64,000 bases of DNA from Gemmatimonadota bacterium. Its GTDB lineage: Bacteria > Gemmatimonadota > Gemmatimonadetes > Gemmatimonadales > GWC2-71-9. The DNA is taken from assembly GCA_039656555.1 (NCBI GenBank), contig JBDHLU010000003.1, positions 3,452 to 67,451 of the forward strand. The letters are read 5' to 3'. This document shows positions 2,855-51,693 of this stretch, one piece after another; position 1 is the first letter of the stretch, and the number at the start of each line of letters is the position of its first letter. A program made the translations under genes and the position numbers. The notes under the pieces are model-generated. The model made no database searches. It was given only the letters and a program-made list of their open reading frames with translations, and was not told the origin of the DNA.

Positions 2855-3157
2855 CTAAGGTTTCTGGAGGAACCAGTTGCCGGTTATGAGGTTTTGAAAC
2901 ACGACGACGTGGCCGCCTCCTTCGAGTACGATGTCGAGGTATCGCCGACTGATGGGATTTCTCCACCACTCGTCGTTGATTCGCCATGAATCAATGACCA
3001 TATCCACTGTAGTGCGCTCCACGGTATTGTCGGGACTCCGTGGATATGAAATTGCGCACAACCGTCCACAAGCATCGAGTTCGACGTCGATTTGGACGGG
3101 TTCGTTTAGTGCTCGAAGTCGATCAGCGCGTACCGGCGTTCGGGAATGCGTGACCAT
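2855..3157 (-). CDS. Stand-alone ImuB C-terminal-like domain protein (100 aa)
   Basis: The ORF ends in SWRINDEWWRNPISRRYLDIVLEGGGHVVVFQNLITGNWFLQKP. This W-rich motif is what I associate with the C-terminal module of ImuB proteins. ATG at 3157 overlaps the 3' end of imuB by 52 nt in another frame. It lies 34 nt upstream of dnaE2. Confidence 0.55.
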   Translation of the reverse strand: MVTHSRTPVRADRLRALNEPVQIDVELDACGRLCAISYPRSPDNTVERTTVDMVIDSWRINDEWWRNPISRRYLDIVLEGGGHVVVFQNLITGNWFLQKP

Positions 3158-4344
3158 GGTTGCACCTCGATGATGTGATGTAGCATTGGTCGCTTGAGGC
3201 GACTCTTGATTTCGGTTGCCGCATGCTCGAGCGCACGCTGCCGTCCTGCCCTAACTGAACTCGCAGCGTCGCGAGCAAAGAGTTGTAACTCCTGTGTTCC
3301 CCGAGCAAAGTCGGTGAATTCGACCGTGAGGTTTTCGATGGCTCCAGTAGGTGGCGATTGTTCGAGCCGAACCTTGAGAGGGGCGACGATGCGATCACTA
3401 TTGGCTGTCGGATCTTTGTGAATGACTTCCACGAGCCACGACGCACCATGCTCGAGTTTTGCTCGAACGCGTGTTGCTAGTACTCGCCAACCAATGCGCC
3501 GTGGGTGTTTGAGTGCGCGTTGCACGAGCTTGTGTATAGCGTTCGCAAGCAAGAGGCGATCTGCGATCGGGACGGAAAAGTGCAAGGCTGCAACGATGGG
3601 CTCGGGGTGCTCTTGCCCGATCACCGGATCGCGCGCGCGACCGCTTGCCAGTTGCCATGCCTCCCGGCCCTCCCGACCGAATTGTGAGACCATAGCCACT
3701 TCGGGAAGTCGGGCGATGTCATGAAGTGTCTTGAGCCCGAGTTGGACGAGCCTGCGGTGGGTGTCGGGGAGGATGGGCAAGACAGCAGTCGGTTGCTGCG
3801 CAATGAACGTGTGCTGCTCGTGATCGCGTACGATCATGGGTTTGCCAGGCTTGGCGCGTGCTGCCGCGATCCAGGAAACGAATTTGCCACGCCCCCATCC
3901 CAATCGCGCGATCGATGCCCATGCGGTGCGCCGGCCGAGCGCCTGCCGCATCATTGCCAGTTGCCGTTCCGGAGGACCGATGAGTTTCTCGAGTCCGTCG
4001 ACACCGATGAACACGCGCCCGAGCTCGACGGGCTCGACGACCGGACTCACATTTCCGAGCGCGGCCACAAGGTGTGTGAACTGCTCGTCATAGTACACCG
4101 GGTCCGGTTCGATCAACACGAGCGTTGGACACAAACCAATGGCCTGGCTCACGGTCATACCAGCGGAGACGCCGGCACGCCGGGCTGTTGGCGAGACCTG
4201 CCACACTCGGCGTGTATCGGTTGCAGTGAGCAGTGCCAACGGCTTCTTCTCGAGATCAGGCCGGCGGTGCTCTTCGCAGCGAAGTGGAAAAAGCGGAATC
4301 CAGAGACATGCAGCACGATCGCTGCTGAGCGTTGCCGAATGCAC
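3106..4344 (-). CDS. imuB: ImuB, catalytically inactive Y-family polymerase-like mutasome subunit
   Basis: 412-aa ORF. The N-terminus CLWIPLFPLRCEE replaces the acidic DxD/E catalytic motif of active Y-family polymerases, as is typical of ImuB. The overall UmuC/DinB-like layout is kept. The GTG start abuts the stop of the upstream radical-SAM gene, and the gene sits next to dnaE2. Confidence 0.78.
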   Translation of the reverse strand: MHSATLSSDRAACLWIPLFPLRCEEHRRPDLEKKPLALLTATDTRRVWQVSPTARRAGVSAGMTVSQAIGLCPTLVLIEPDPVYYDEQFTHLVAALGNVSPVVEPVELGRVFIGVDGLEKLIGPPERQLAMMRQALGRRTAWASIARLGWGRGKFVSWIAAARAKPGKPMIVRDHEQHTFIAQQPTAVLPILPDTHRRLVQLGLKTLHDIARLPEVAMVSQFGREGREAWQLASGRARDPVIGQEHPEPIVAALHFSVPIADRLLLANAIHKLVQRALKHPRRIGWRVLATRVRAKLEHGASWLVEVIHKDPTANSDRIVAPLKVRLEQSPPTGAIENLTVEFTDFARGTQELQLFARDAASSVRAGRQRALEHAATEIKSRLKRPMLHHIIEVQPWSRIPERRYALIDFEH

Positions 4345-5352
4345 CTAGGACTCCCAGAACGTGAGCTGTGTCGATGGGGGCTTGGGCGCTTTGGTGTAAT
4401 CGCGCTCTGTGCCGGTGTCTTCGATACCGAAACGCCGCCCGATGTCTCGAAAACGTGTACGAAGAGCGCCAAGATACGTATCTGGGACGTTCTGGCCCTT
4501 GTCGTAGTTGGCGTGATAGCGCGTAACGAGCCCAGGATACGCGCTGGCGAGAATTGGTAAGACGCGCTTGCGCGTGTCGCTATACATCCGTAATGGGACG
4601 GGATGTACAAAATGAGCACCGGCATCACGCGCTTCGGACATGAGAAGTTCGATTTGCTGAACGGTGTCCGTGATACCGGGAAGAATGGGAGCGACGAGCA
4701 GCCCGGCCCGTATCCCATTTCGAGTGAGCTTGTCCAACGCCCGAAGTCGCACGTGCGGTATTGGCGAGCGTGCCTCGAACTGCTTGATGATGTTGATGTC
4801 AGCGCTGATGAGTGAGATGTAGACGGAGACGAGATTACGCCGAGCAAGGGCTTTCAGGAGGTCAGTGTCGCGGCAAATCAGCGGACTCTTGGTGATTATC
4901 CCAATACGGATACCACGTTCGGTGCGAAGCCGGTCGAGAATCGTTCGCGTGATCTGATACAAGCGCTCGGCGGGTTGGTAGGGATCTGTGCTGCTCCCGA
5001 TGAGCAGTGTTTGGGTTCCATCGCGCACCGTCCGCCGCCGCAGTTTACGCAGATCGGTATCGAGTGCCCGAAGGACGGAACTCCGCCGTTTGACGAAGAT
5101 CCGTTGTTCGAACGGTTCGGGACCGAGCGGCACGCTCAGGCGCCCACGACTCCGTGCCCGGTCGACCACGTAGTTGTGTGCGAACCGTGCGTAACAGTAC
5201 GAACACCCGAACTCGCACCCTACATACGGATTGACCGACCAGAACTCCATGTTCGTGGATTCAGGAGTGTTGATGATCGATTGGCAGGTAAGCTCGAGGA
5301 ATTTGGTTCCCCGCCGGCGTTCATCGATGACTGAAAACTCTGTGGCCGTCAT
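4345..5352 (-). CDS. Radical SAM protein, SplB / 'DNA repair photolyase' (COG1533, Rv2578c/PA0069-like) family
   Basis: CxxxCxxC cluster in NPYVGCEFGCSYCYARF, with a TIM-barrel-like remainder (ORF track 4345..5421). I prefer ATG 5352 (MTATEF...) because it forms an ATGA overlap with the stop of the upstream 63-aa ORF. The TAG stop at 4345-4347 is immediately followed by the imuB GTG. Confidence 0.8.
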   Translation of the reverse strand: MTATEFSVIDERRRGTKFLELTCQSIINTPESTNMEFWSVNPYVGCEFGCSYCYARFAHNYVVDRARSRGRLSVPLGPEPFEQRIFVKRRSSVLRALDTDLRKLRRRTVRDGTQTLLIGSSTDPYQPAERLYQITRTILDRLRTERGIRIGIITKSPLICRDTDLLKALARRNLVSVYISLISADINIIKQFEARSPIPHVRLRALDKLTRNGIRAGLLVAPILPGITDTVQQIELLMSEARDAGAHFVHPVPLRMYSDTRKRVLPILASAYPGLVTRYHANYDKGQNVPDTYLGALRTRFRDIGRRFGIEDTGTERDYTKAPKPPSTQLTFWES

Positions 5353-5540
5353 CCGCAGCGCCCCCAACCACAGGTCAGGCATGTCTTGCAGGCCGAGGCA
5401 TGCGCTACCGGCCCTCCACACTCCGGACAGACCGAACCGGGTTCCCGGGTTTCGTAGGGATACCGGGGGTGGTCCGGCCAGGGGTTGAACTGTAACTCGC
5501 CCCGTGGTCGGTGGGCGTACTTCGGGTTTTGTTCGGACAT
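5349..5540 (-). CDS. Cys-rich zinc-ribbon-like small protein (63 aa)
   Basis: MSEQNPKYAHRP...SVCPECGGPVAHASACKTCLTCGWGRCG contains CxxC and several further Cys. Third-position GC looks coding-like. It is translationally coupled (ATGA) to the radical-SAM gene and is the first ORF of the imu cassette. Confidence 0.5.
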   Translation of the reverse strand: MSEQNPKYAHRPRGELQFNPWPDHPRYPYETREPGSVCPECGGPVAHASACKTCLTCGWGRCG

Positions 5541-5678: not shown

Positions 5679-6851
5679 TTGAACGCGCAACTATCTTCAG
5701 TCTCGCGTCCGGCCCAGCCGGCACCGTCCAATACCGTTCTTCGCGTACTTGCCGTTTTCGCGTTGTTATTCGTATTCATGCTAGGTGTGAACGGGCTTGG
5801 GGACGGATTCAAAGCTCTTGGGGGCGGACTCGTAGAGAGCTTCATCGCCGCGACTGAGAACCCGTTCATAGGATTGATGGTCGGTATCCTCGCCACGACA
5901 CTCGTACAGAGTTCATCGGTATCGACTTCGCTCATCGTTGGACTCGTCGCGGCGCCCGAGAATCCGCTGCCCATCGTGAACGCCGTCCCGATGATCATGG
6001 GTGCCAACATTGGGACGACCGTGACGAACACGCTCGTGTCACTCGGTCACATCGGTCGGGCCGAAGAGTTCCGTCGTGCGTTCGCTGTGGCCACGTGCCA
6101 CGACTTCTTCAACTTCATCGCTGTCGCCGTGTTCCTTCCGCTCGAGATGCTCACGGGGTATCTCCGCAAAACTGCGACGGCGTTGTCGTCCTTGCTGACA
6201 GGATTCGGCGGTGTCGAGTACGAGAGCCCCATCAAGAACGTGTTGAAGGCGAGCCTGATACCGATTAAGGGGGCGATTGCCCTTGTGTTCAGTGGGACTA
6301 GGGCGCAGACTGTGACGCTCATTTTATTCAGTGCCGGGTTGATCTTCCTTGCCCTGTACTTTTTGGTGCGAGTCATGCGCTCGGCCATGCGGTCACGGGT
6401 CGAGGGGTTGGTGTCTCGAGGGTTGGGTCAGACGGCGGTGTTGTCGATCATTGTGGGGATCGTGGTCACCGTCATGGTGCAATCGAGTTCGATTACCACC
6501 TCGTTGCTTGTGCCGCTGGCGGGTGCAGGTATCGTCACCCTTCAACAGGCATTCCCGATCACGGTTGGTGCCAACCTCGGTACCACTGTGACGGCGGCGC
6601 TCGCGGCGTTGGCGGCCACCGGTGAAAACGCTACGGCCGGCATCACCATTGCGCTCGTGCATTTTCTGTTCAACCTGAGCGCAATGCTCTTGATCTTTCC
6701 ATGGCAGCCGATCCGACGGATTCCCATTATCGCCGCCCAGCGTTTGGCAGATGTTGCTGTGAAGTCTCGTCGATACGCGCTGCTGTACGTTCTCTTATTG
6801 TTCTATGGGGTGCCGGCGCTGTTCACCGTGTTGAACCAGTTGTTGCAGTAG
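5679..6851 (+). CDS. Na+/phosphate cotransporter family protein (NptA-like, PF02690-type)
   Basis: 390-aa polytopic membrane protein. It has the duplicated motif LATTLVQSSSVSTSLIVGLV / VTVMVQSSSITTSLLVPLA and GANIGTTVTN / GANLGTTVTA, characteristic of Na/Pi cotransporters. TTG start. Confidence 0.85.
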   Translation: MNAQLSSVSRPAQPAPSNTVLRVLAVFALLFVFMLGVNGLGDGFKALGGGLVESFIAATENPFIGLMVGILATTLVQSSSVSTSLIVGLVAAPENPLPIVNAVPMIMGANIGTTVTNTLVSLGHIGRAEEFRRAFAVATCHDFFNFIAVAVFLPLEMLTGYLRKTATALSSLLTGFGGVEYESPIKNVLKASLIPIKGAIALVFSGTRAQTVTLILFSAGLIFLALYFLVRVMRSAMRSRVEGLVSRGLGQTAVLSIIVGIVVTVMVQSSSITTSLLVPLAGAGIVTLQQAFPITVGANLGTTVTAALAALAATGENATAGITIALVHFLFNLSAMLLIFPWQPIRRIPIIAAQRLADVAVKSRRYALLYVLLLFYGVPALFTVLNQLLQ

Positions 6852-6863
6852 TCTGGGGGTTTC

Positions 6864-7553
6864 ATGCTTCACGAATTACTCAAGTTCTTTCGATCCGCCC
6901 AACCACTTCAGGCCATGGGTGATAGCTTCTCGAAAATGTTCGAGTTGGCGTATCACCTGACTTGCGAAGCGGGGGAGATTTATTTCGGTAAGAAGGTCAC
7001 GCCCGAAGAGCGGACGCGGATATACAAACGCGATGTGGAGATCAACAAACTGCAACGCGTCGTCCGCAAGCAAGTCATTGCCCATCTTTCGCTGAGTGGA
7101 AACAGCTCGAACCTGCCCTACTGCCTTGTCTTGGTGAGCCTAGTGAAAGACGTCGAGCGGATCGGTGATTACGCCAAGAACCTCACCGAGGTGCACGACT
7201 TCCGGCCAGAGCCGCTACCGGATGACGACATCGTGGCCGAACTGACTGAGATTCGTGCCGGTGTAGAATCGGCCTTTGCCGCGGCGAAGGATGCGTTTGC
7301 CACTTCGAATCGCGAGCAAGCCATCACGTTGATCCAGGCGGGTCGCGATATGGCGCAGCGGGCTGACGCCTTGATTACGCGAGTGGCGCGCAGTGATTAC
7401 GATGCAGCAACGACGACGGCTGTTGTGTTGGGGGCCCGATACTACAAACGGATTGGCGGGCACGTCTTGAATGTGCTATCGAGCGTGGTCATGCCTCTTC
7501 ACAAGCTCGACTACTACGACGAAGACAACAAAATCGCTGCAGCTGGCGGCTAG
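6864..7553 (+). CDS. PhoU-domain protein
   Basis: 229 aa with the PhoU-like signature KDVERIGDYAKNLTEV and two helical repeats. It lies 12 nt downstream of the Na/Pi cotransporter gene. Confidence 0.75.
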   Translation: MLHELLKFFRSAQPLQAMGDSFSKMFELAYHLTCEAGEIYFGKKVTPEERTRIYKRDVEINKLQRVVRKQVIAHLSLSGNSSNLPYCLVLVSLVKDVERIGDYAKNLTEVHDFRPEPLPDDDIVAELTEIRAGVESAFAAAKDAFATSNREQAITLIQAGRDMAQRADALITRVARSDYDAATTTAVVLGARYYKRIGGHVLNVLSSVVMPLHKLDYYDEDNKIAAAGG

Positions 7554-8248
7554 CCCACCGTCTCGACTGTATCCGCACTTTTTGCTGAGGCCAGATCCAC
7601 CATCATGATATCACCGGCATAGGTTGTCACCGGCGCATCCGACAGATTCGCAATTTTTCGGATATTGGTGGCAATGCGTGTCGCTGCTTCGTGGATACTC
7701 TGCGCCGATTCTTTCTGATCTTCCGTCAAACTCGATCCCTGCGCGGAAAGCATTTGGCTTTCCGTTACGATCGCGGTGAGAGCATTGTTGATCTCGTGCC
7801 GTATCGCAACGGCGAACTGACCAATTGCGGCCATTCGTTCGTTGCGCAACGCGCGGCTGTAAAAGGTATGAAGTTCTTCCGATAACCAACCCACACTTAT
7901 CGCCAAGCTGCCGTAGGCGATGTAGATAGGCACCGTGATTCGCCAATTATCCGGAGTGTAGTTGAGCGCCACGACGAGCTGCACGACCACGAAGAGGGCA
8001 GTGCCCATCAATAGCCCGGCAAAGGCACCCTTGAGCCCGTAGTGCAACGACAGCAAGAATGCAGGTACGAGCGTGACGAGCCATACTAATTCGTCAGTGA
8101 GTCCTGGGTCTTCCGGGAGTGCTACCTGAACCATCACCGGCATGAGGTAAGCGGCGGCACAATAGATTTTGAGACGCGGGTTCAAGGGTGGCCGATGGGC
8201 CAGCGGTCCAAAGCCAATCGTTTCGACGATGCGGGATTTGAGCGACAT
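7550..8248 (-). CDS. Membrane protein with histidine-kinase DHp (HisKA) domain but no ATPase domain
   Basis: About 4 TM helices (aa 25-125) followed by ERMAAIGQFAVAIRHEINNALTAIVTESQML (H-box). The ORF stops about 60 aa later with no N/G1/G2 boxes. Confidence 0.6.
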   Translation of the reverse strand: MSLKSRIVETIGFGPLAHRPPLNPRLKIYCAAAYLMPVMVQVALPEDPGLTDELVWLVTLVPAFLLSLHYGLKGAFAGLLMGTALFVVVQLVVALNYTPDNWRITVPIYIAYGSLAISVGWLSEELHTFYSRALRNERMAAIGQFAVAIRHEINNALTAIVTESQMLSAQGSSLTEDQKESAQSIHEAATRIATNIRKIANLSDAPVTTYAGDIMMVDLASAKSADTVETVG

Positions 8249-8308
8249 TGGGTGATCCGGTGAGCAGTACGGTCCCGAAGATGTATCATGACTGGAGTTC
8301 AGTAAAGG

Positions 8309-10639
8309 TCAGGTTTCCGCAGAACCGTCGCCAATGAGCATTGCGTCGACGGTCATGTGGGTCACCCTGGACCTACGACGATCTTGTGTTACGCACCAGG
8401 CGTGGATCTTTTCCGGCACGAGTTCGTTCGTGAGCGCCACGAGTTGACGCTCACGTCCAATCCGCAGGCCCGCGGCTATTCGATCCAACGCCTCGTTGAT
8501 CAGGTCCACAGTGGTTGCGTTACGAAGCAGTGACGCGGCGCGGGCGGCGAGCATCAACCGGCGAGAGATAACGCGGGCTGGAACACCAACCGGCATGTCA
8601 TGGGCAATCCGGAGCCGGTCTCGTAGATAAGCGAGAAGTGGCCCTGCCCACTTCAACGCAACGGCGCCATCGAGGGGCCGACAGGATGTGAGTCGATCGG
8701 CCAATTCCCGCAGTTCGCCAAAATTTTCGATTGGGAAGGCTTGCGACCCGTGCAGCCCGACTACCTCGGGAATCGAACCCTGCTCGGTGTGCCAACTGAT
8801 AGCAGCGACCAATCCGCGGGGCCCGGCCACGACGGCGAAACAGGAACCTGTATCATCAGACGGGCGGTGGTCGTTGCAGAACATCTCACGCGCTTCCAAA
8901 CCGTGGTTCCAAACGGAGGATCGGCCGACTCGACTCGTGGCTGGAACGCTGGTCTCGACTTGGATTTTTGCCTTGTCGGCGACCCGTTGCCGCAGTCGGA
9001 GACGTGCGTCGAGTGGCGGTGGGGGACAGAACCACCAGACGTGGGCGATCGCATGCCGTGTGCCGAGACGTCGGATTCTGCCGAGCCGTTGCGAAAGACG
9101 CAGGGGCGTCCAGGGCAAGTCATAGTGGATGATTGCGTCGGAGTCCTGCAGATCCAAGCCTTCGCTCACCATGTCGGTGGCGATCAATGTTCGCAGGGAC
9201 AGGTGCCGAGGCGGAGGGCCCGTCTTTCGCGCGGTAGGCGAGAAAAGATCCAAGGCTTTCTGCACGGTGCATCTACCGGTAGCGATCCATGCGTGGCCTC
9301 CGCTGACGACGGCAGTGTGACTCCAATTCAGTTGCCGCGCGAGGTGGATGGCGGTTGCCGTCGCCGATGTGAACACGATGGTGCTGTCGGCACAACGAGC
9401 TTGGAGAAGTTTGACGGCGGCGGCCGCCTTGGGATCGCATTCGTGTCGTAGCGCTCGATGGTGTAGCAATGCGTCCACGCGCTCTCGCTCCGCTCGCAGG
9501 TCTGCGGGATCGACGGGAGTTCCATTCGCAAACAATCCCATCTCGAGTTGTAGTTCGTCTCCGTGGCCGAATAGGCGCGTTGACTCGGCACGCGACAGGC
9601 GCGTGCCGGTCATGGCCGCTGCAGTGGCTCGATCGACGTATGCAAGATGGCGACGCAACGTCTCCCGGGCGGCCGCTGCTGAAGAAGACAGGCGATAGAA
9701 CAAGTGGTTGCGTAAGAGTGACCGGGCTGCAGGGTTGTCGAACGATGGGAACCTCAAGGCCTCGATGTGATCGATGAGGTCTTCCACCGTGGATTCCGGA
9801 ACGGGCGGCAGTTCGATGAGCTGGTAGTCCACGGCGGTCGGCAGGTGTTCGTCCGGAATACGAGCGGCTTTGGGCGACCGCGCGACCATAATGGGTGCCA
9901 GGGCCCTCTGCACTCTGGCGGGCTCCGCTTCCACGACCTCTTGCAGGGATGGAATGCCAAGAGTAGCGAATGCCGAATCGGGGAGAAACAGGCGGAGGAC
10001 GTTCACCAAGTCGCTGAGGCCATTGACGAGCGGCGTAGCCGTGACGGCCAGGATGTCGGCGTTGCCGATGTCGTGCGCCAGTCTATCGTAGCGGCGAGTG
10101 GCGGCGTTTCTGAATCGATGTGCCTCGTCAATGATGATGAAATTCGCGGGCGGTAGGCAATTCCCCCGACTCAGGCTTTCATGGGAATGCAACGTCACCG
10201 GAACGCCAAGCGAGTGGGCGGTCGTTTCCCATTGGGGCAGCAGCACTGCAGGTACGGCTGCGACCGCAGATTGGTAACGAGAGGCAATAGCCAACGCGAC
10301 GTACGTTTTTCCAAGGCCCACTACGTCGGCCAACAACGCCCCCCCGAATTCCCGTATCGAACCGACGAGCCGCTGAGCAGCGGATCGTTGGTGGGGCATG
10401 AGCCAATGTGGTGGTCTCCAGTGCGTTGCAACGGGTCCCGCCATGGCGACCCGCAATGTTTCGAAGACGCGTTCCGGCGTTGTCCGCTGGGCACCTTCGA
10501 GTTTCCAGTGGAGCGGTTCCCGGACGATTCGGAGATCAGTTCCGCTCAGAGAGAGCCATGGTGCGGAGGCGTGCCTGTGTTGCTGTACTGATGTCCAACG
10601 CTTCCGCGACGACTTCGTCGAGCTCGTTTTGTTCGACAT
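8309..10639 (-). CDS. SNF2/DEAH-box superfamily-2 helicase with uncharacterised C-terminal region
   Basis: Motifs [19 protein letters not shown] (I), [11 protein letters not shown] (II), [10 protein letters not shown] (III) and [14 protein letters not shown]...[10 protein letters not shown] (V/VI). The last 250 aa or so have no motif I recognise. The longest ORF overlaps the methyltransferase gene by 104 nt. ATG 10444 (MAGPVATHW...) is an alternative start. Confidence 0.8.
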
Positions 10640-13604
10640 ATTGTTGTGAGTGTGCGCGTTTGCTGATCGAGATCGCTGACGTCAGTCGTGCAGAATCGAC
10701 AGGGATTGGAATTCGGTCCATCACGCGGGCGTTCAATCGTCGGTACCCACCGCGCGCTTCATCTGACGCCGAGCGGACGTACGGTATTACCCAGGTAGAG
10801 TTCAATACAGCGGTTATGATGTGAGCCTCTCGTTCAGATGGCGCTGCCGCGCAGTAGCACGTGTTGAGGGGCAGAACGGCTTGGCTTGAAGCCGCCTCCA
10901 GATAGACGGCTCGCGGATGCCGTGCGAGATCAGGCCATACCACACGGTGAGCGGCGCACGCGGCACCGGTTCGGAACACCGCCCAAAGTGGGCCGGTGTT
11001 GTAGTCCGCCCGTGCCCTCAGTGCCGATGCGTTGGCGGCGATGTATACGTGTGCCAACTCAGGGATTCTTTGGAGTGGAACACCCTCATGATCGCACGCC
11101 CACAAAAGGACCTTGACGGTCGAAAGTCCGAAAGGCCGAACATCTCGGCCACGTATCACGGGTCGGAGTACGCGGCCTTCAGTCCACACCTCGGATGTGG
11201 CGAACTGCACGAGGGTCAGTTTCCCGCGCCTTTGAATGGGCGTACCCACAAAAATACCGTCCGCGCCTGTCTTGACACCCAGGGCAGACCGTGTCAGGGC
11301 AGAGAGAGGTGGCGCAGATTCAAGGAAGTCGCCTATAGCCCGCAGGTCGTGGTCCGGGCGGAGGATCCATGGTCCGGCACGCCGCAGCGAGGATTGACGG
11401 ACGGTAGCCTTCGTCTCAAAACTCAGCCGGACTCTGTGTCGTGGCGGTGGGGTCGACCGGCGCAAGATGATCACGAGCGGATAGGTCGTGGCGCCGAATT
11501 GTTCCGATTGGTGTTCCGGTACGCGGTGGAGGTATTCGAGGGTCGTTTCTCGCACGAGCGTCTGACGGGCGGGTTCACCGTACCCTGAGCTCGTGATTTT
11601 GCTGGGCACCAAGAGAGCCATAACGCCATTTGGTCGGGTGAGTTCCAATCCCCGCTCGACGAATGCCAAGGCGAGATCCGGCAGGTGCGCGTATCCTCTC
11701 CGCCCCGTCGCCTGCCACCAGCGGAAGCGTCGTTTTAACGAAACACGGGCCTCCTTGGATAACCGTTCCGCCCTGACCCATGGAGGGTTTCCAATCACGA
11801 CGTCAAACCCGCCGCGAGCCATAGCCTGAGGCGCATGGACCTCGAACGCGAAGAACGGGATTTGGTTCTCCGAAACTGCCTTCTGTGATCGTTCGAGATG
11901 CTTAACGCTCGACACGAGCCCGTTTCGCATCCGTTGTTGCTCGGCGGTCAATGGGCGGGTGACACCAAACAAATCAGGAGTCGTTTGCAACGTGTCGAGT
12001 TCGCGAAGTCGTACGGCACACGCCGAGCTCGACCGTTCCAGTAACCGGTTGGCCAGGTCGGCTTCGCGATGGCGGAGTTCGCGCATGAGTTTGCGATACT
12101 TGGTGCCCCGCGCGTCGAACAGACGACGACGACAGTTCTCGATGTCCCGCGCTTCAGATGATGCAGACACGAGATCGATGGATACGAATGCACGAGTCGC
12201 CGACACCGGATCCATCAGAGTGTCCCCCTGGCGGACGATGCCGTCGAGGTTCGGAAGTGGTGCAATCTCGCCGATTGTCGTTTCGGGATCATCAGCGATG
12301 ATCGCTAGCCAAAGGCGCAGTTCCGCTAGACGTATGGCCGTCGGGTCGAGGTCCACGCCAAACAGGTTCTGCTCGAGTAGGTGACGGCGAAGGCGCGATC
12401 GGTTCACCGGCTTGTCTGGAGAAAGCTGGACCCACAACGCCGTGAGGTGGTCCAATGCGCCTAGCAGGAAGGCACCCGATCCGCACGCGGGATCGAGGAT
12501 CCGCATCTCGCGTAGACGTTGTCGCAACTTGCCACGGTCTGGTTTGCCGGATCGAAGCATTTCCATGAGGGAATGACAGTGGGATCCACCCTCGAGCACC
12601 GCCTTGTCGATTGCGGTCGTCACGACATGGTGAACCAGTTCTTCTGGCGTGTAGAACGTGCCACTGGTGAGTCGTTGTTGGGTTTCCATGAGACGTTCGA
12701 ACACGTGCCCAAGCATATCTGGGGCGATGGCGTCCACTTCATCCGCTTCGCGGACGCAAAACCGAAACCGCTCGAACACGTCGTCGAATGCTCGACACCA
12801 GATCTCATTGGAAAAGTGTCGGTGGGGCATCCGCTGCTCGACTGGGTGCATCTCGAAGAGCCCACCGTTCAGGTAGGGAATGTCGTTGAAGCGTGACGTC
12901 CGGCGCTTTGCCGGGGGTTGGTTCAGTGTGCCGAAAAAGAGTTCGTCGAGTATCGCAGAGTGAAAGCTCTCCCCAACGGCGAGCGCTCTATCCAACTGCT
13001 TTCGCAAGAAGCGTCTTTCGCCGTTCAGCCATCCTTTGGCCTGAACGAAGTACAGGAAGAGAATTCGTGTCAGAGCCAGGAGGGTGACTTGGCGGCGGTC
13101 GCTCATGCGGTATCGGTTGTCCAAGGATGCCACCATCTCATCGAGGAGTTGACGAAACGCCCGAAAGAAACGGTCTCCCGCTGCTTCTGTCCGAAGGAGT
13201 TCACTGAGCCGGATTGCGTGGCTGAGGGCATTGGCCTCAGGGTCGGGACGGAGCGCTTCGACGAAATCCAGCTGTTCTCTCGTTGGCTCTTCGAGCGGGA
13301 TGGCGTAGGCCTTGGTTGTTGCGGTCTCTCCGATGTGTGGGGCGGCGAGGCAAAGCCTGCCCTGTCCGAGTGAAACAGCCAGACCGCGTTCGCCGAGTCG
13401 ACCGATGGTCCGAGCCAGCGCCCGCGCGGCTGGCGCGGGGTCACTAGACTGAACGGCGATGATCCGAAACCCTCTCCAGCGGGCAACTGTGGATGCCGCG
13501 TCATGGAAGGGCAGCAACTGCGGTTCGTATCCGAGCGCCGTGAATAGATCCGGCAAGTTCTCAACGGTTTCTACCCGTCGCAAGATTGAAGCGGTCCCGA
13601 GCAT
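10536..13604 (-). CDS. Large gamma-class N6-adenine DNA methyltransferase (Eco57I/PglX-like) with TaqI_C-like specificity region and no visible nuclease
   Basis: 1022 aa. Motifs [14 protein letters not shown] (N-terminal helical region), [24 protein letters not shown] (SAM motif I), VVIGNPPWV (motif IV, nt about 11781-11795) and [13 protein letters not shown] in the C-terminal target-recognition-like part. Confidence 0.85.
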
Positions 13605-48486: not shown

Positions 48487-50565
48487 CTATGGCCAGGTAG
48501 CTCCGTACTCTTCGGCCAGTGCTTGCAGGCCCAGTGGTTCGCCGATGATGGTCAAGCGATCCCCCTCTTGCAGTTTGGTTGCACCGCGAGGCACGATGGA
48601 CTGGCCTCGCCGCCAGATCAATGCTATGAGGCTGCCCTCCGGCATCCGGAGGTCACGCAGTGCCCGGCCGTTGAGTGACTCAGTCTTGGTACCGGCCTGT
48701 ACGACGAGCGAAAGGAACCGATCGTTGCGAAGGAGTACCTCTTTCATTTCCTGCTCGTCGACACTAGCCAACCATTCAGTGGTGAAGTTGTCGTCTTCGA
48801 CGCGTCCGGCAAGTTGCGCGAGGATTCTGAGGTGACGTCCGGGGTCCTTCTCGCCACTCACCAGCATGAAGATTGCCGTGACATCCGCATCATCGATCCG
48901 CAATCCGTCCTTAGCTCTCACCAACGCAATCTCGGATTCATCGAGCGCCGGCAGGCGCACGTGGAGGAGTGCTGAGCCGTGAGCCACTGGAGCTCCCACA
49001 GAGATGCTGCGGTGAAAATCGGCCTCCAGTTCGCTGGCCTCGACCGGCAGACGTTCGGTGAGTCTTTCGCATCCTCTCCTGACGATCTGATCGAGATCCA
49101 CAGGTCCGGCTAGGTCCAACACGTAGGCCCTGGCGACCACCTCGTCAAAAGGATCTTCGGCCCGGGCTCCCTTCTCCTTCATGATATCACGTAGCTCGCG
49201 GTCGAGGCCCGCGAAACGTCGCCGTCCCAATCGCTCGAACACGTGGAAGATTGCCCCGTCCCGTTTGATGTGGTCGCGAGCGTAGTAGTTGTACCAGCCA
49301 AAGCCCACAGCCGTCACGCCCACGGTGAACAATACCGGGAGCCAACCCATCTCTCCGACCAGAACCAAGGCGACAAACAGGCCAATGAACTGTACCCACG
49401 GGTATCCGGGCGATCGGAACTCAGGATCGTACGACTCGATGCGGCTTTCCCGCATGACGATTACGGACACGTTGATGAGTCCAAAGAGCAACAGTTGCAA
49501 TGCGCTCGCGACTTTGGCGACCTGCGCAACGTTCAACGCGAGAAGGAACAAAACCAACGTGCCACCGGTCACGAGGATCGCCGGGATAGGGGTGCCGAAC
49601 CGACTAATGGTGGCTAACTGCTTGGGGAGCAACCCGTCTCTTCCCATGGCAAGTGGGTAGCGAGATGCCGCGAGGATTCCGGCATTCGCCATAGAAGCAA
49701 ATGCGACTATGGCCGAAAGTACGACCAACCACTTGGCGACCGTCGCGGGGATCGAGCGCTCGAACGCCATCGCGGTATCCGCCACCGGCGTGAGACTTTG
49801 GCTGAGTTCATCCACACCCAAGATGGCCACCATGAGGTAGACGCCCACGACGTAGATCACGGTAACGGTCGCTAACGCGAGCGTCATGCCAAGCGGGATA
49901 TTGCGTTCCGGTCGGTGAACCTCCTCTGCCAGGCTGGCAACGTTGGTCAGGCCGATGTAGGAGACAAACACCAGGCCGACGGTGCCGAGGAGTCCGTCGA
50001 TGCCGTTCCGCAGCAGGGGCGAGAAGTCGTCACCTGGCATGAATCCACCCGGCCGCCCGGCCACCTCGACTATTGCGCTGAGTATGAATACGCCGAGTAT
50101 GGTGAGCAGCGTCACGACGAAGATGCGAATCAAGCCACTCGTGCGTCGCGAACCGAGAATATTGAGGACACAAAACACGATCGCGAGCGCAATCGACGTA
50201 CGAAATACCGGTACCTCGATCACGATGGCGACGTAGACGCCCATGCCGATGAGTGCGAAACCACTTTTGAGGACCAAAGTCAACCACGTGCTGAACCCGC
50301 CGATCGTGCCTACGAGAGGCCCGAGCGTTCGGTCGAGGTAGTAGTACGTGCCGCCGGCTTTTGGCATCGCCGTCGCAAGCTCGGCCATGCTCAACATGGC
50401 GGGGATGATCAATATTCCCGCGATGATGTAAGCGATGACCACGCCTGCTCCAGCCTCGGCAGCAGCGATGCCGGGGAGCAGGAAAAACCCCGAGCTGATC
50501 ATCGCTCCGGTAGAGATCACGAAGACGTCGAGCAGTTGGAGTTCTTTGCGGAGTTTCTGTGCCAT
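48487..50565 (-). CDS. APC-superfamily amino-acid permease fused to PTS-EIIA(Ntr)-like and TrkA-C domains
   Basis: About 440-aa 12-TM permease (FVISTGAMISSGFFLLPG...), then a cytoplasmic region with VAHGSALLHVRLP...IALVR (EIIA-2-like), then LRDLRMPEGSLIALIWRRGQSIVPRGATKLQEGDRLTIIG (TrkA-C). Confidence 0.8.
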   Translation of the reverse strand: MAQKLRKELQLLDVFVISTGAMISSGFFLLPGIAAAEAGAGVVIAYIIAGILIIPAMLSMAELATAMPKAGGTYYYLDRTLGPLVGTIGGFSTWLTLVLKSGFALIGMGVYVAIVIEVPVFRTSIALAIVFCVLNILGSRRTSGLIRIFVVTLLTILGVFILSAIVEVAGRPGGFMPGDDFSPLLRNGIDGLLGTVGLVFVSYIGLTNVASLAEEVHRPERNIPLGMTLALATVTVIYVVGVYLMVAILGVDELSQSLTPVADTAMAFERSIPATVAKWLVVLSAIVAFASMANAGILAASRYPLAMGRDGLLPKQLATISRFGTPIPAILVTGGTLVLFLLALNVAQVAKVASALQLLLFGLINVSVIVMRESRIESYDPEFRSPGYPWVQFIGLFVALVLVGEMGWLPVLFTVGVTAVGFGWYNYYARDHIKRDGAIFHVFERLGRRRFAGLDRELRDIMKEKGARAEDPFDEVVARAYVLDLAGPVDLDQIVRRGCERLTERLPVEASELEADFHRSISVGAPVAHGSALLHVRLPALDESEIALVRAKDGLRIDDADVTAIFMLVSGEKDPGRHLRILAQLAGRVEDDNFTTEWLASVDEQEMKEVLLRNDRFLSLVVQAGTKTESLNGRALRDLRMPEGSLIALIWRRGQSIVPRGATKLQEGDRLTIIGEPLGLQALAEEYGATWP

Positions 50566-50589
50566 GAACGACTAACAAACCATTGCCTG

Positions 50590-51693
50590 ATGCGTCAACT
50601 GACTCTACTCGGCGTGCTGGTGTTCACGTGGTCTTGCGGCGGACAGGCCCAAGAACGTGCAGCGAGCACCTCCTTTGCGGAGAAAGTGCAAGCGCTCTCC
50701 GAGCCGGGGGGCTTCTTCGACACCGACAACCTCATCTCGAATGAGCGGTCCTACCTCCACGTTATGGATGCGCTAACGCGCGAAGGGGTCGAAGGCGGGG
50801 CGTACATCGGCGTGGGTCCGGATCAGAACTTTTCGTACGTAGCGCAAATTCAACCCGTAGTCGCCTACATGATCGACATTCGGCGCGACAACATGGTGCT
50901 TCATTTGATGTTCAAGGCCATGTTCGAACTGGCTCCGACCCGGGTTGAGTTTCTGTCGCTGCTCGTGGGTCGCTCAACGCCGCCGGTAGACGATGGGTGG
51001 TCAACCTGGTCGATCGCCGAACTCGTGACGTACTTCGACACCGCAAGCGGCGAACAGGGTGTGATCGACATGGTACGCGCGAGCATTGATAGTGCGGTGC
51101 AGACATTCGGTGTGCCGCTTTCGGACGACGATCGGAGCAACCTCGATCAGTTTCACCGGACATTCATTCGCGAGGGACTAGCACTACGTTTCAACTCGTA
51201 CGGGCGGTCTCCACAGTCGTACTACCCGACCTATCGCGATCTCCTGTTGGAAGAGTCCGTTTCAGGCGAGCGACTGAACTACCTATCCACGAGCGATCGG
51301 TACAGCGTCGTTCGGGATCTGCAACTCGCCGATGCCATAATTCCGGTGGTCGGCGATCTGGCCGGTACTCGTGCGTTGCGCGCCATCGGACGGGACATCG
51401 ACGATCGTGGACTGCGTGTCTCAGCGTTCTACACGTCCAACGTAGAGTTCTATCTGTTTGGATCGGGCACCTTCTCGGCGTTCTCGACCAACGTACGCAC
51501 GCTCCCAATAGATCGACACAGTGTGTTTATTCGGAGTTTGTTCCGGAATCCGTACGGTGGCCGGCATCCCATGACGATTCCGGGATACGCGTCAACTCAG
51601 TTGCTGTGGCCGATCGCGGATTTTGCACGGGCGGAACTGGCGGGTGAGATCAGGTCGTACTGGGATCTTGTCGACCGCTACGTGCCAAACTAG
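50590..51693 (+). CDS. Secreted hypothetical protein
   Basis: The 3' part of track ORF 49915..51693. ATG 50590 gives MRQLTLLGVLVFTWSCGGQA (signal or lipobox). I recognise no family. Confidence 0.5.
   Translation: MRQLTLLGVLVFTWSCGGQAQERAASTSFAEKVQALSEPGGFFDTDNLISNERSYLHVMDALTREGVEGGAYIGVGPDQNFSYVAQIQPVVAYMIDIRRDNMVLHLMFKAMFELAPTRVEFLSLLVGRSTPPVDDGWSTWSIAELVTYFDTASGEQGVIDMVRASIDSAVQTFGVPLSDDDRSNLDQFHRTFIREGLALRFNSYGRSPQSYYPTYRDLLLEESVSGERLNYLSTSDRYSVVRDLQLADAIIPVVGDLAGTRALRAIGRDIDDRGLRVSAFYTSNVEFYLFGSGTFSAFSTNVRTLPIDRHSVFIRSLFRNPYGGRHPMTIPGYASTQLLWPIADFARAELAGEIRSYWDLVDRYVPN

What the first reader, a model, noticed from the sequence alone, without database searches (positions are those of the whole stretch)
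7550..13604. Nuclease-less PglX/Eco57I-type m6A methyltransferase + SNF2-like helicase (+ kinase-dead DHp membrane protein): candidate non-canonical defence or epigenetic module
Three co-directional minus-strand genes form the module.

(1) 10536-13604 encodes a 1022-aa protein with gamma-class N6-adenine MTase motifs: [20 protein letters not shown] at nt about 12456-12500, and GNPPW at nt about 11781-11795. Its N-terminal helical region of about 300 aa carries [14 protein letters not shown], as in BREX PglX and type IIG enzymes. Its C-terminal region of about 400 aa looks like a TaqI_C-type target-recognition domain ([13 protein letters not shown]). I see no PD-(D/E)xK, HNH or PLD signature.

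(2) 8309-10639 encodes an SF2 helicase with GLGKT (nt about 10304-10318), DEAH (nt about 10118-10129), TATP and [10 protein letters not shown] motifs. About 250 C-terminal residues carry no motif I recognise. The two ORFs overlap by up to 104 nt, or lie 92 nt apart if the helicase starts at ATG 10444.

(3) 60 nt further downstream, 7550-8248 encodes a 4-TM protein with a histidine-kinase H-box but no ATPase domain.

The partners that define known methylase-plus-helicase systems are all missing from the window. There is no PglZ/BrxC/BrxL (BREX), no DrmA/DrmB(DUF1998)/DrmC (DISARM), no Res/HsdR/HsdS, and no Mrr-type head as in type ISP enzymes. The flanks are housekeeping genes (PhoU/NptA on one side, DUF402 on the other). 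A modification enzyme coupled to a translocase without a visible nuclease follows BREX/DISARM logic in a much smaller package.
Basis: partly seen in the sequence, partly recalled or inferred. Interest (0 to 1): 0.75.

Follow-up and report, generated by a model that had tools for sequence, protein, structure and literature searches.

The report
Lineage-conserved nuclease-less methylase–Snf2 helicase pair
Two overlapping genes for a DNA adenine methylase (a restriction-enzyme relative with no detectable cutting site) and a Snf2-type DNA motor are inherited together with the chromosome across Gemmatimonadota and some Acidobacteriota, which fits a built-in epigenetic system better than a mobile anti-phage weapon.

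Summary
The window encodes a 1022-aa Eco57I/MmeI-type gamma-class m6A methyltransferase (10536-13604, minus strand). A 776-aa Swi2/Snf2 helicase (8309-10639, minus strand) overlaps its 3' end by 104 nt.

I found no nuclease in either protein, and no BREX, DISARM or BR partner in the window or in about 160 related loci.

What is new is how the pair is inherited:
- The helicase follows the MTase in every testable locus (at least 74 GTDB species, plus metagenome contigs). The one exception is a genome whose MTase has decayed.
- The catalytic motifs are invariant in 58/58 species.
- The two proteins co-diverge (r=0.95).
- Their divergence tracks housekeeping neighbours (r=0.86-0.97) inside lineage-specific synteny.
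- Viral contigs and PLSDB plasmids hold no orthologue.
- The MTase target-recognition domain is nearly as conserved as the catalytic core (ratio 0.87-0.93). In defence-type relatives, which carry an HKD nuclease and an ATPase, the ratio is 0.58-0.65.

The HisKA-only membrane protein is a facultative neighbour, not part of the module.

Best reading (about 0.5): a vertically inherited, fixed-specificity "methylase plus remodeller" epigenetic module. A nuclease-free, BREX-like defence system fixed in the lineage remains possible (about 0.28). This is a new variant of a known kind, of moderate to high interest.

The parts
10536..13604 (-). 1022-aa gamma-class N6-adenine DNA methyltransferase of the Eco57I/MmeI type. 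Its layout is that of a type IIG enzyme, but no nuclease active site is detectable.
   Evidence: ORF. Pfam Eco57I, N6_Mtase and MmeI_Mtase. PADLOC type IIG 5e-38 and DrmMI 3.7e-29. More than 100 full-length homologues at 45-93% identity. NPPW and motif I are invariant in 58/58 species.
13230..13604 (-). MTase N-terminal domain (aa 1-125): an alpha/beta domain that occupies the position of the type IIG nuclease domain and lacks catalytic residues. I read it as a relic restriction-endonuclease-like fold.
   Evidence: AF2 pLDDT 91.8 with alpha-beta-beta-beta-alpha-beta-beta topology. Foldseek gives no significant hit; the weak top hits are enriched in PD-(D/E)xK folds (Hjc, RecU, splicing endonuclease, R.BspD6I). 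No invariant D, E or K. No Pfam or PDB-sequence hit. The profile finds only this family among 1.84 billion representatives.
12705..13229 (-). MmeI-type helical spacer (aa 126-300), including [14 protein letters not shown] and PYLNGGLF.
   Evidence: Pfam MmeI_hel and DUF7814, weak. The family profile aligns to MmeI residues 190-429 (PDB 5hr4). Mean pairwise identity 0.54.
11400..12704 (-). Methyltransferase catalytic domain (aa 301-735): FYTP, motif [13 protein letters not shown], a variable insert at aa 471-590, and motif IV GNPPW.
10695..11399 (-). Target-recognition domain (aa 736-970), of the TaqI_C / M.BseCI type, unusually conserved across species.
   Evidence: The profile matches the M.BseCI TRD (PDB 7qw5; domain E 6e-7). 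Invariant blocks LGVKTGA, RGRD, PLNxCY and DEARGGYRR. The TRD-to-catalytic identity ratio is 0.87-0.93, against 0.58-0.65 in defence-type relatives.
10536..10639 (-). 104-nt overlap between the MTase 3' end and the helicase 5' end, which probably couples their translation.
   Evidence: In 57 other species the helicase reading frame likewise runs back into the MTase gene, with no intergenic gap.
8309..10639 (-). 776-aa Swi2/Snf2-family helicase/translocase, the dedicated partner of the MTase.
   Evidence: ORF. Pfam SNF2-rel_dom, Helicase_C and ResIII. The best solved relative is RapA, followed by ISWI, CHD, INO80, DDM1 and LSH. The Walker A lysine, DEAH and motif VI are invariant in 58/58 species. 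About 400 homologues.
8312..9034 (-). Helicase C-terminal domain (aa 536-776): a beta-sheet plus a helical bundle, specific to this family, with no nuclease fold detected.
   Evidence: AF2 pLDDT 77.8. Foldseek against the PDB finds nothing, all TM below 0.2. No Pfam or PDB-sequence hit. The invariant residues are W, K, Q, G, R and L only.
7550..8248 (-). 232-aa membrane protein with a HisKA (DHp) domain and no ATPase domain. It is a facultative neighbour and not part of the conserved module.
   Evidence: Pfam HisKA 1.9e-9. Directly downstream only in L002, L003, L005, L011, L014 and L016; absent or displaced elsewhere. No PADLOC hit.

Best explanation
This is a chromosomal, vertically inherited two-gene 'methylase plus remodeller' module.

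The first gene encodes a derivative of a type IIG restriction-modification enzyme. It keeps the full layout (N-terminal REase-like domain, MmeI-type helical spacer, gamma-class m6A methyltransferase, TaqI/BseCI-type recognition domain) but has no nuclease active site. The second gene overlaps the first and encodes a dedicated Swi2/Snf2 ATP-driven DNA translocase with a family-specific C-terminal domain.

I propose that the two proteins act together as a housekeeping epigenetic system. The methylase writes m6A at one fixed, probably short and asymmetric, motif across the host chromosome. The Snf2 motor uses ATP either to move the methylase along DNA or to clear DNA-bound proteins so that sites become accessible after replication.

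Shown: the genes and their intact catalytic motifs; the lack of any detectable nuclease or defence partner; strict two-way co-occurrence; co-divergence; vertical inheritance; a conserved recognition domain.

Inferred: a physical complex, m6A activity, the nature of the motif, and the housekeeping role.
For: - Pairing: the MTase lies directly upstream of the helicase in every GTDB species locus with upstream DNA except L001, in Gemmatimonadota and Thermoanaerobaculia. Conversely, every family MTase on metagenome contigs with at least about 500 nt of downstream DNA is followed by the helicase. Remote branches keep the pairing.
- Coupling: a 104-nt overlap in the window and no intergenic gap in 57 other species.
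- Function retained: NPPW, motif I, the Walker A lysine, DEAH and motif VI are invariant in 58/58 species.
- Co-divergence: r=0.95 between the two proteins.
- Vertical inheritance: the same synteny (DUF402, pair, PhoU, Na/Pi, radical SAM, ImuB, DnaE2) is found at 43-48% helicase identity. Distant Gemmatimonadales and Thermoanaerobaculia each have a different but internally conserved synteny. Divergence of the pair tracks neighbouring housekeeping genes at r=0.86-0.97. GC content is not atypical.
- All recurrent neighbours are housekeeping genes.
- No orthologue in IMG/VR viral contigs or in PLSDB plasmids.
- The TRD is conserved almost as well as the catalytic core (ratio 0.87-0.93). In the nearest defence-type relatives the ratio is 0.58-0.65. 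Those relatives carry an HKD nuclease on the helicase and an extra AAA ATPase.
- No nuclease was found.
- The nearest solved helicases are RapA and chromatin remodellers, including the methylation-linked DDM1 and LSH.
Against: - No methylome, expression or genetic data exist for any member, so activity and role are inferred.
- The best HMM matches are all to defence families (type IIG, DrmMI, PglX; DrmD, DpdE, BrxH, HmaA), and the nearest outgroup operons are defence-type. A defence ancestry is therefore likely, and a retained defence function cannot be excluded.
- One complete genome (L001) keeps the helicase but has lost the MTase. The helicase is therefore not strictly dependent on the methylase.
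- TRD conservation is only indirect evidence for fixed specificity.
- The helicase C-terminal model is of moderate confidence only, so a very divergent catalytic fold could have been missed.
Confidence: 0.5

Rival explanations
1. A nuclease-free anti-phage or anti-plasmid system with BREX/DISARM-like logic that has become fixed in these lineages. The MTase marks self DNA. On unmethylated invading DNA, the MTase-helicase complex recognises its site and the Snf2 motor blocks replication or strips proteins, without cutting.
For: - The top PADLOC and NCBIfam matches are defence proteins: type IIG 5e-38, DrmMI 3.7e-29, PglX; DrmD 7e-23, DpdE, BrxHI, HmaA.
- Class 1 DISARM contains an adjacent Snf2 (DrmD) and N6A MTase (DrmMI), and deleting both nearly abolished protection against one phage (bioRxiv 10.1101/2021.12.28.474362).
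- The closest outgroup loci are defence-type operons combining Snf2 with a type IIG-like MTase.
- The MTase keeps the whole type IIG layout.
Against: - Inheritance is vertical and syntenic, and tracks housekeeping genes.
- There is no defence-island or mobile-element context, and no viral or plasmid copies.
- The TRD does not diversify as it does in defence relatives.
- There is no effector, ATPase or PglZ.
- The scores are far below every curated family cut-off.
- L001 tolerates the helicase without the MTase.
Confidence: 0.28
2. A module coupled to DNA repair, replication or transcription. A RapA-like Snf2 motor works on stalled polymerases or damaged DNA. The methylase provides strand or age discrimination, and the module is functionally tied to the neighbouring radical-SAM, ImuB and DnaE2 mutagenesis cassette.
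For: - RapA is the best solved relative of the helicase (2.7e-20).
- The radical-SAM/ImuB/DnaE2 cassette lies 2-10 kb from the pair in many Gemmatimonadales loci.
- Lineage-wide conservation suits a core DNA-metabolism role.
Against: - The cassette is separated from the pair by oppositely oriented phosphate genes, and it is absent near the pair in Thermoanaerobaculia and in many Gemmatimonadales loci.
- The RapA equivalog scores 34.5 bits against a cut-off of 576, and the match covers lobe 2 only.
- The proximity can be explained by conserved chromosome synteny.
Confidence: 0.15
3. A decaying, non-functional remnant of a type IIG, DISARM or BR-type restriction system.
For: - The N-terminal domain looks like a dead nuclease.
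- One genome shows a truncated MTase.
Against: - Both ORFs are full length in at least 58 species. Every catalytic motif is invariant, and mean identities are similar to those of neighbouring housekeeping enzymes.
- Hundreds of full-length homologues exist.
- This amount of conservation is incompatible with neutral decay.
Confidence: 0.05

Closest known systems
Type IIG / IIL restriction-modification enzymes (Eco57I, MmeI, BpuSI)
   Same: One polypeptide of about 1000 aa with the same domain order: N-terminal alpha/beta domain, MmeI-type helical spacer, gamma-class m6A MTase (NPPW), C-terminal TRD. Supported by the Pfam Eco57I and MmeI_Mtase hits, by PADLOC type IIG as the best hit, and by the profile alignment to the MmeI spacer plus MTase. 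Definition from PMC3874165.
   Different: The N-terminal domain has no conserved D...(D/E)xK and no sequence similarity to the type IIG nuclease. The protein is obligately paired with a Snf2 helicase. It is vertically inherited and has a conserved TRD.
DrmD + DrmMI sub-module of class 1 DISARM
   Same: An adjacent Snf2-like helicase and N6-adenine MTase. DrmD is the best PADLOC and NCBIfam hit for the helicase, and DrmMI is a strong partial hit for the MTase.
   Different: There is no DrmA, DrmB (DUF1998) or DrmC (PLD) in the window or in about 160 related loci. DrmD scores 93 bits against a cut-off of 610. No PF13659 hit. The gene order is MTase then helicase, the reverse of drmD then drmMI. 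The context is chromosomal housekeeping, not a defence island.
BREX type 3 (BrxHII + PglXI) and DUF499-centred BREX-Related / Hma systems
   Same: They combine a RapA-like Swi2/Snf2 helicase with an N6A MTase. Some of them (type 3 BR) also lack a nuclease (PMC12839542).
   Different: Those systems require BrxC or a DUF499 ATPase, usually a helicase-REase fusion or PglZ, and a DUF1156- or BrxXI-type MTase. None of these is present here. Hma was reported to have a patchy distribution indicative of horizontal transfer (PMC8565338). The distribution here is vertical.
Type ISP enzymes (LlaGI, LlaBIII)
   Same: The same set of activities in one machine: an SF2 translocase, a gamma-class MTase and a TRD that recognises an asymmetric site (PMC3874165).
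   Different: Type ISP enzymes are single polypeptides with an N-terminal Mrr nuclease. Here the motor and the MTase are separate proteins and no nuclease is present.
Lineage-conserved orphan MTases (Dam, CcrM, CamA), and the eukaryotic Snf2 remodeller / DNA methyltransferase partnerships (DDM1 or LSH/HELLS with DNMTs)
   Same: Vertical, lineage-wide conservation of an MTase with no cognate nuclease and a stable specificity domain. CamA, DDM1 and LSH appear among the solved-structure hits. The comparison is functional only and rests on my general knowledge of those systems.
   Different: To my knowledge, no bacterial orphan MTase is described with an obligate Snf2 partner. The resemblance to DDM1 and LSH is one of logic, not orthology.

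Membership tests
Type IIG R-M enzyme (Eco57I/MmeI type) | N-terminal PD-(D/E)xK endonuclease domain with catalytic residues | tested here: not met
   There is no invariant D, E or K in aa 1-125 across 24-58 homologues. No Pfam or PDB-sequence hit. The MmeI alignment starts at MmeI residue 190. Foldseek gives only weak resemblance to the PD-(D/E)xK fold, with E at or above 0.02.
Type IIG R-M enzyme (Eco57I/MmeI type) | Gamma-class N6A MTase domain (motif I FxGxG, motif IV NPPW/Y) fused to a helical spacer and a C-terminal TRD | tested here: met
   Pfam Eco57I 86.6 bits and MmeI_Mtase 41.6 bits, both above their cut-offs. NPPW is invariant. The spacer aligns to MmeI and the TRD to M.BseCI.
Type IIG R-M enzyme (Eco57I/MmeI type) | DNA cleavage at a fixed distance from the site | not testable with these tools
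   This needs biochemistry.
Class 1 DISARM | Core genes DrmA (helicase) and DrmB (DUF1998), with or without DrmC (PLD) | tested here: not met
   None among the ORFs of at least 450 aa in the window. No conserved additional neighbour in 83 loci. Definition.
Class 1 DISARM | DrmD and DrmMI orthology | tested here: not met
   NCBIfam DISARM_DrmD scores 93.2 bits against a cut-off of 610. The PADLOC DrmD and DrmMI hits are partial and cover the core only. There is no PF13659 hit.
BREX (any type) | PglZ phosphatase and BrxC/PglY ATPase | tested here: not met
   Absent from the window and from related loci. The Phosphodiest-like neighbour in Thermoanaerobaculia gives no PADLOC hit, PglZ models included.
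BREX (any type) | PglX orthology | tested here: not met
   The NCBIfam BREX MTaseX models score 48-66 bits against cut-offs of 400-900.
BREX-Related type 1 / Hma | DUF499 (HmaC) ATPase, a DUF1156-type MTase and a Snf2-REase fusion | tested here: not met
   No ATPase gene is adjacent in any locus. The Pfam hits do not include DUF1156. The helicase C-terminus has no REase catalytic residues or fold hit. Definition.
Type ISP R-M | A single polypeptide: Mrr nuclease, SF2 translocase, gamma-class MTase, TRD | tested here: not met
   There are two separate ORFs and no Mrr domain. Definition.
Swi2/Snf2 family helicase | SF2 motifs I, II (DEAH), III and VI, with an SNF2-related N-lobe | tested here: met
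   Pfam SNF2-rel_dom 42.7 bits and Helicase_C 41.4 bits, both above their cut-offs. The motifs are invariant in 58/58 species. The PDB profile hits are all Snf2 enzymes.
RapA (RNA-polymerase-associated Snf2) | Equivalog-level similarity, with the tandem Tudor N-terminus | tested here: not met
   NCBIfam RapA scores 34.5 bits against a cut-off of 576. The PDB match covers lobe 2 only. The N-terminal region is only about 75 aa.
Lineage-conserved orphan (housekeeping) DNA MTase, as a functional class | No cognate nuclease, vertical lineage-wide conservation, and a stable specificity domain | tested here: met
   within the detection limits of sequence and fold searches.
Lineage-conserved orphan (housekeeping) DNA MTase, as a functional class | Near-complete methylation of one motif genome-wide, with regulatory or replication phenotypes | not testable with these tools
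   The only lead is that the Gemmatirosa methylome has an unassigned m6A motif, ATGCAC, methylated at more than 99% of sites (PMC3974934). Whether an orthologue is present there was not verified.

The most novel reading that the evidence does not exclude
Bacteria of the Gemmatimonadota, together with some Thermoanaerobaculia and remoter branches whose taxonomy I did not determine, possess a prokaryotic counterpart of the eukaryotic DDM1 or LSH remodeller / DNA methyltransferase partnership. In this reading a domesticated restriction enzyme that has lost its nuclease needs a dedicated Snf2 ATPase to maintain a chromosome-wide m6A mark. That would be a core epigenetic machine rather than an immune system.
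Probability: 0.3. Interest if true: 0.8.

Novelty: new variant of a known kind. Interest (0 to 1): 0.62.

Why it matters
Pairings of a methyltransferase with a Snf2 helicase are known so far only as parts of multi-gene anti-phage systems (class 1 DISARM, BREX type 3, BR/Hma). Those systems are patchy in distribution, horizontally transferred, and carry a nuclease, an ATPase or PglZ.

Here the same two activities form a minimal, overlapping gene pair. It has been inherited with the chromosome across a whole phylum-level lineage, keeps every catalytic motif, has no detectable nuclease, and does not diversify its recognition domain.

If the housekeeping reading is right, this would be an example of a restriction-type enzyme domesticated into a core epigenetic function. 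To my knowledge it would also be the first bacterial case of a DNA methylase with an obligate chromatin-remodeller-type partner, which offers a tractable bacterial parallel to DDM1 or LSH-assisted methylation.

If the defence reading is right instead, it would be the smallest nuclease-free methylation-based immunity module, and an unusual case of an immune system fixed over deep evolutionary time.

Either outcome can be tested directly in cultured Gemmatimonadota, provided they carry the pair.

Tried and rejected
- Cryptic nuclease in MTase aa 1-175. The AF2 model is confident, but Foldseek against the PDB gives no hit at E<=1e-3 and only weak resemblance to the PD-(D/E)xK fold. Pfam scans of all 24 members and a profile search of PDB sequences give nothing. 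An exhaustive profile search of 1.84 billion representatives returns only this family, with no D..ExK that I could see in the remote members.
- Cryptic nuclease in helicase aa 530-776. AF2 pLDDT is 77.8; Foldseek, Pfam and PDB-sequence searches are all empty. I could not confirm a relationship to the RapA/BrxHII C-terminal domains described in PMC12839542.
- A third conserved gene. Clustering all neighbours in 83 loci found none present in more than 31 loci. The recurrent ones look like, or were confirmed by Pfam as, HAD hydrolase, aminotransferase, PhoU/DUF47, PHO4, glycosyltransferase, malate synthase, peptidase S9, permease and aldehyde dehydrogenase.
- PglZ in Thermoanaerobaculia. The divergent upstream Phosphodiest-like gene gives no PADLOC hit.
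- The start at ATG 10444 with a 92-nt gap. Rejected.
- The HisKA protein as a module member. Rejected.
- Apparent loss of the helicase in L084. This was a gene-listing gap; the helicase is intact.
- Mobile-element association. Viral contigs and plasmids hold only generic Snf2 helicases at about 25-30% identity.
- Linking the family to the Gemmatirosa ATGCAC motif. I could not fetch that genome, and no cultured species was named among the listed homologues.
- Literature searches for a previously described stand-alone pair found none.
- The promoter and terminator scan was uninformative, at chance level.

Full report
**1. Checking the observation**

The three co-directional minus-strand ORFs exist exactly as described: 10536-13604 (1022 aa), 8309-10639 (776 aa) and 7550-8248 (232 aa).

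Pfam places the first protein in Eco57I (2.8e-24), N6_Mtase and MmeI_Mtase. MmeI_hel, DUF7814 and TaqI_C hit weakly, below their cut-offs. The second protein matches SNF2-rel_dom, Helicase_C and ResIII. The third matches HisKA with no ATPase domain.

The flanks are DUF402, PhoU, a Na/Pi cotransporter, a radical-SAM protein and an ImuB-like IMS protein. GC content across the module is not atypical. None of the other ORFs of at least 450 aa in the 64-kb window is a BREX or DISARM component. They are NadE, ChaN, a permease, DUF7790, a Ser/Thr kinase with TPR repeats, PAS histidine kinases, peptidase S9 and a Na/H exchanger.

The overlap-versus-gap question can be settled. A helicase N-terminal motif, W-P-x-I-x-A-E-x-L-x-x-V-x-E-P-L, is conserved in 58 species. 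In the window it begins upstream of the MTase stop codon, and ATG 10639 is the only canonical start upstream of it. The 104-nt overlap is therefore real.

**2. What the two proteins are**

The MTase family profile matches, among solved structures:
- M.BseCI, over the TRD and catalytic domain;
- MmeI, but only its helical spacer and MTase (residues 190-429), not its N-terminal nuclease;
- CamA;
- BrxX/PglX, weakly.

The helicase profile matches RapA best. Next come ISWI, CHD, INO80, DDM1 and LSH.

PADLOC and NCBIfam give defence families as the best hits. For the MTase these are type IIG, DrmMI and PglX. For the helicase they are DrmD, HKD+Snf2, DpdE, BrxH and HmaA. All are partial, core-only matches far below the curated cut-offs; for example, DrmD scores 93 bits against 610, and the PglX models score 48-66 against 400-900.

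**3. Is there a hidden nuclease?**

The MTase N-terminal 175 aa model confidently (pLDDT 91.8) as an alpha-beta-beta-beta-alpha-beta-beta domain followed by a long helix.
- Foldseek finds no significant PDB match. The weak top hits are enriched in PD-(D/E)xK folds: Hjc, RecU, the tRNA-splicing endonuclease and the R.BspD6I small subunit.
- The domain has no invariant acidic or lysine residue.
- It has no Pfam or PDB-sequence match in any of 24 members.
- A search of 1.84 billion representative proteins returns only this same family of about 1000 aa.

It sits where type IIG enzymes carry their nuclease. I therefore read it as a relic, inactive REase-like domain. That reading is an inference.

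The helicase C-terminal 247 aa (pLDDT 77.8) form a beta-sheet plus a helical bundle. They have no structural, Pfam or sequence match and no conserved catalytic-type residues.

**4. Distribution and inheritance: the main new result**

Both proteins have hundreds of full-length homologues, and all those with a source name are from Gemmatimonadota.

The best 80 are Gemmatimonadota plus several Thermoanaerobaculia. In every one of these loci with upstream DNA, the MTase lies directly upstream on the same strand. The one exception is L001, a complete 3.17-Mb genome, where only a TRD fragment of the MTase remains beside an intact helicase.

The converse also holds. Every family MTase on metagenome contigs with at least about 500 nt of downstream DNA is followed by the helicase. 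More remote branches keep the pair too, among housekeeping genes, once with an extra 182-aa ORF between the two genes.

Across 58 species with both genes intact:
- NPPW, motif I, the Walker A lysine, DEAH and motif VI are invariant;
- the two proteins co-diverge (r=0.95);
- the helicase reading frame always runs back into the MTase gene.

The genomic context is conserved within lineages:
- The window's order (Sortilin/BNR, ThiS-like, DUF402, MTase, helicase, with or without HisKA, PhoU, Na/Pi, radical SAM, ImuB, DnaE2) recurs at 43-48% helicase identity.
- Distant Gemmatimonadales share a different block: pair, HAD hydrolase, aminotransferase, then PHO4 and a PhoU-like gene.
- Thermoanaerobaculia share yet another.

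Pairwise divergence of the MTase and helicase tracks that of neighbouring housekeeping genes in the same loci. The correlations are r=0.97 for radical SAM, 0.91 for HAD, 0.93 for the aminotransferase, 0.92 for the glycosyltransferase and 0.86 for IMS, at similar absolute identities.

No other neighbour is conserved with the pair, and all recurrent neighbours are housekeeping genes. The Phosphodiest-like gene next to the pair in Thermoanaerobaculia is not PglZ. IMG/VR viral contigs and PLSDB plasmids contain no orthologue. The HisKA-only protein is adjacent in only six of the closest loci and so is not part of the module.

**5. A controlled comparison with defence-type relatives**

The metagenome scan also returned an outgroup of Eco57I/MmeI-like MTases at 23-30% identity with no match to the N-domain. 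Most have a Snf2 gene upstream rather than downstream.

Two of these loci, examined in detail, encode:
- a helicase of about 1100 aa matching the HKD+Snf2 and HmaA models;
- a type IIG-like MTase;
- an AAA ATPase resembling mad3, PtuA and GajA.

This is a defence-type operon with a nuclease.

At matched catalytic-core identity (0.4-0.8), the TRD-to-catalytic identity ratio is 0.58-0.65 in this outgroup but 0.87-0.93 in the family studied here. Invariant TRD blocks (LGVKTGA, RGRD, PLNx[11 protein letters not shown]) span the family. The recognition domain is therefore not diversifying as it does in arms-race relatives. That points to a fixed target sequence.

**6. Mechanism**

Best-supported model (confidence about 0.5): a domesticated type IIG-derived m6A methylase with fixed specificity works with a dedicated, translationally coupled Snf2 translocase as a chromosomal epigenetic module. 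The motor either carries the methylase along DNA or clears bound proteins to expose sites.
- Shown: gene structure, motif integrity, two-way co-occurrence, co-divergence, vertical inheritance, a conserved TRD, and the lack of any detectable nuclease or partner.
- Inferred: complex formation, activity, the motif, and the physiological role.

Rivals:
- A nuclease-free BREX/DISARM-like immunity system fixed in the lineage (0.28). The defence-family HMM affinities and the DrmD/DrmMI precedent support it. The inheritance pattern, the conserved TRD, the lack of an effector, and the tolerance of helicase-only L001 argue against it.
- A role coupled to repair or transcription, linked to the nearby radical-SAM/ImuB/DnaE2 cassette or RapA-like activity (0.15). 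The association is only syntenic and is not kept in Thermoanaerobaculia.
- A decaying remnant (0.05). The conservation data effectively exclude it.

**7. Comparison with what is known**

The pair works like a split, nuclease-free type ISP enzyme, or like the DrmD/DrmMI sub-module. It fails the membership tests for type IIG (no nuclease), class 1 DISARM (no DrmA/B/C, and below cut-offs), BREX (no PglZ or BrxC), BR type 1/Hma (no DUF499 ATPase, no DUF1156 MTase, no helicase-REase fusion) and RapA. The definitions come from PMC3874165, bioRxiv 10.1101/2021.12.28.474362, PMC8565338 and PMC12839542.

Literature searches found no description of a stand-alone, vertically inherited MTase-Snf2 pair.

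One lead remains. The methylome of Gemmatirosa kalamazoonensis reports an unassigned, non-palindromic m6A motif, ATGCAC, methylated at more than 99% of sites (PMC3974934). That is the type of site Eco57I/MmeI-family enzymes make. I could not verify that an orthologue is present in that genome.

**8. Verdict**

Novelty: a new variant of a known kind, namely a minimal, vertically inherited MTase-Snf2 pair related to defence modules but with the hallmarks of a housekeeping epigenetic system.

Interest is about 0.6. The most novel reading still open is a bacterial analogue of remodeller-assisted DNA methylation. I put it at about 0.3, and it would deserve about 0.8 if true.

Noticed in passing
window 3106-5421 (minus strand); L002 15106-21007; L003 15216-21323: A radical-SAM gene directly abuts an ImuB-like IMS gene. 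In relatives these are followed by a small ORF and a DnaE2-type Pol III alpha. This looks like a mutasome-type cassette with a radical-SAM protein in the position usually held by ImuA. It lies 2-10 kb from the MTase-helicase pair in many Gemmatimonadales loci.
   Followed up: partly
window 7550-8248 (minus strand): A membrane protein with a HisKA (DHp) domain and no ATPase domain is wedged between the helicase and PhoU. It is present in only some close relatives (L002, L003, L005, L011, L014, L016) and lies several kb away in others. It may belong with the phosphate genes rather than with the MTase-helicase pair.
   Followed up: partly
window 5679-7553; L018-L055 (clusters c7 and c11): Phosphate-transport and regulator genes recur next to the pair in both Gemmatimonadales subgroups. 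The window group has PhoU plus a Na/Pi cotransporter. The distant group has PHO4 plus a PhoU-like/DUF47 gene. I do not know whether this reflects ancestral synteny or a functional link.
   Followed up: no
L001 8504-12220 (CP070792.1, complete 3.17-Mb genome): The helicase is intact with all its motifs. The MTase is reduced to a 266-aa ORF covering only TRD residues of about 769-982, preceded by an unrelated 184-aa ORF. This is a natural helicase-only state.
   Followed up: partly
L166 10384-10932 (and probably L205, L207 and L215, where the spacing is 600-915 nt): In an outer branch of the family an extra ORF of about 182 aa sits between the MTase and the helicase. It has no Pfam, PADLOC or NCBIfam match.
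   Followed up: partly
L227 2300-12957; L229 503-11666: Outgroup metagenome loci encode an HKD+Snf2 helicase (about 1100 aa), a type IIG-like MTase, an AAA ATPase resembling mad3, PtuA and GajA, and a fourth protein of 556-649 aa. This is a defence-type operon that does not fit the published Hma / BR type 1 definition exactly.
   Followed up: partly
window 51690-54575 (minus strand): A 961-aa Ser/Thr kinase with TPR repeats scores strongly against the PADLOC PD-T4-6, mad6 and PglW kinase models. This is probably generic kinase-domain similarity. It lies about 40 kb from the module.
   Followed up: no
L041 5009-6682 (minus strand), and the equivalent position in L062, L069, L076 and L077: In Thermoanaerobaculia a conserved, divergently oriented Phosphodiest-like protein (alkaline-phosphatase superfamily) lies immediately upstream of the MTase. 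It gives no PADLOC hit at all.
   Followed up: yes
window 48487-51693: Two long ORFs on opposite strands overlap by about 650 nt: an amino-acid permease with EIIA and TrkA_C domains (48487-50565, minus strand) and a DUF7790 protein (49915-51693, plus strand). The true start of the DUF7790 gene is probably further downstream.
   Followed up: no
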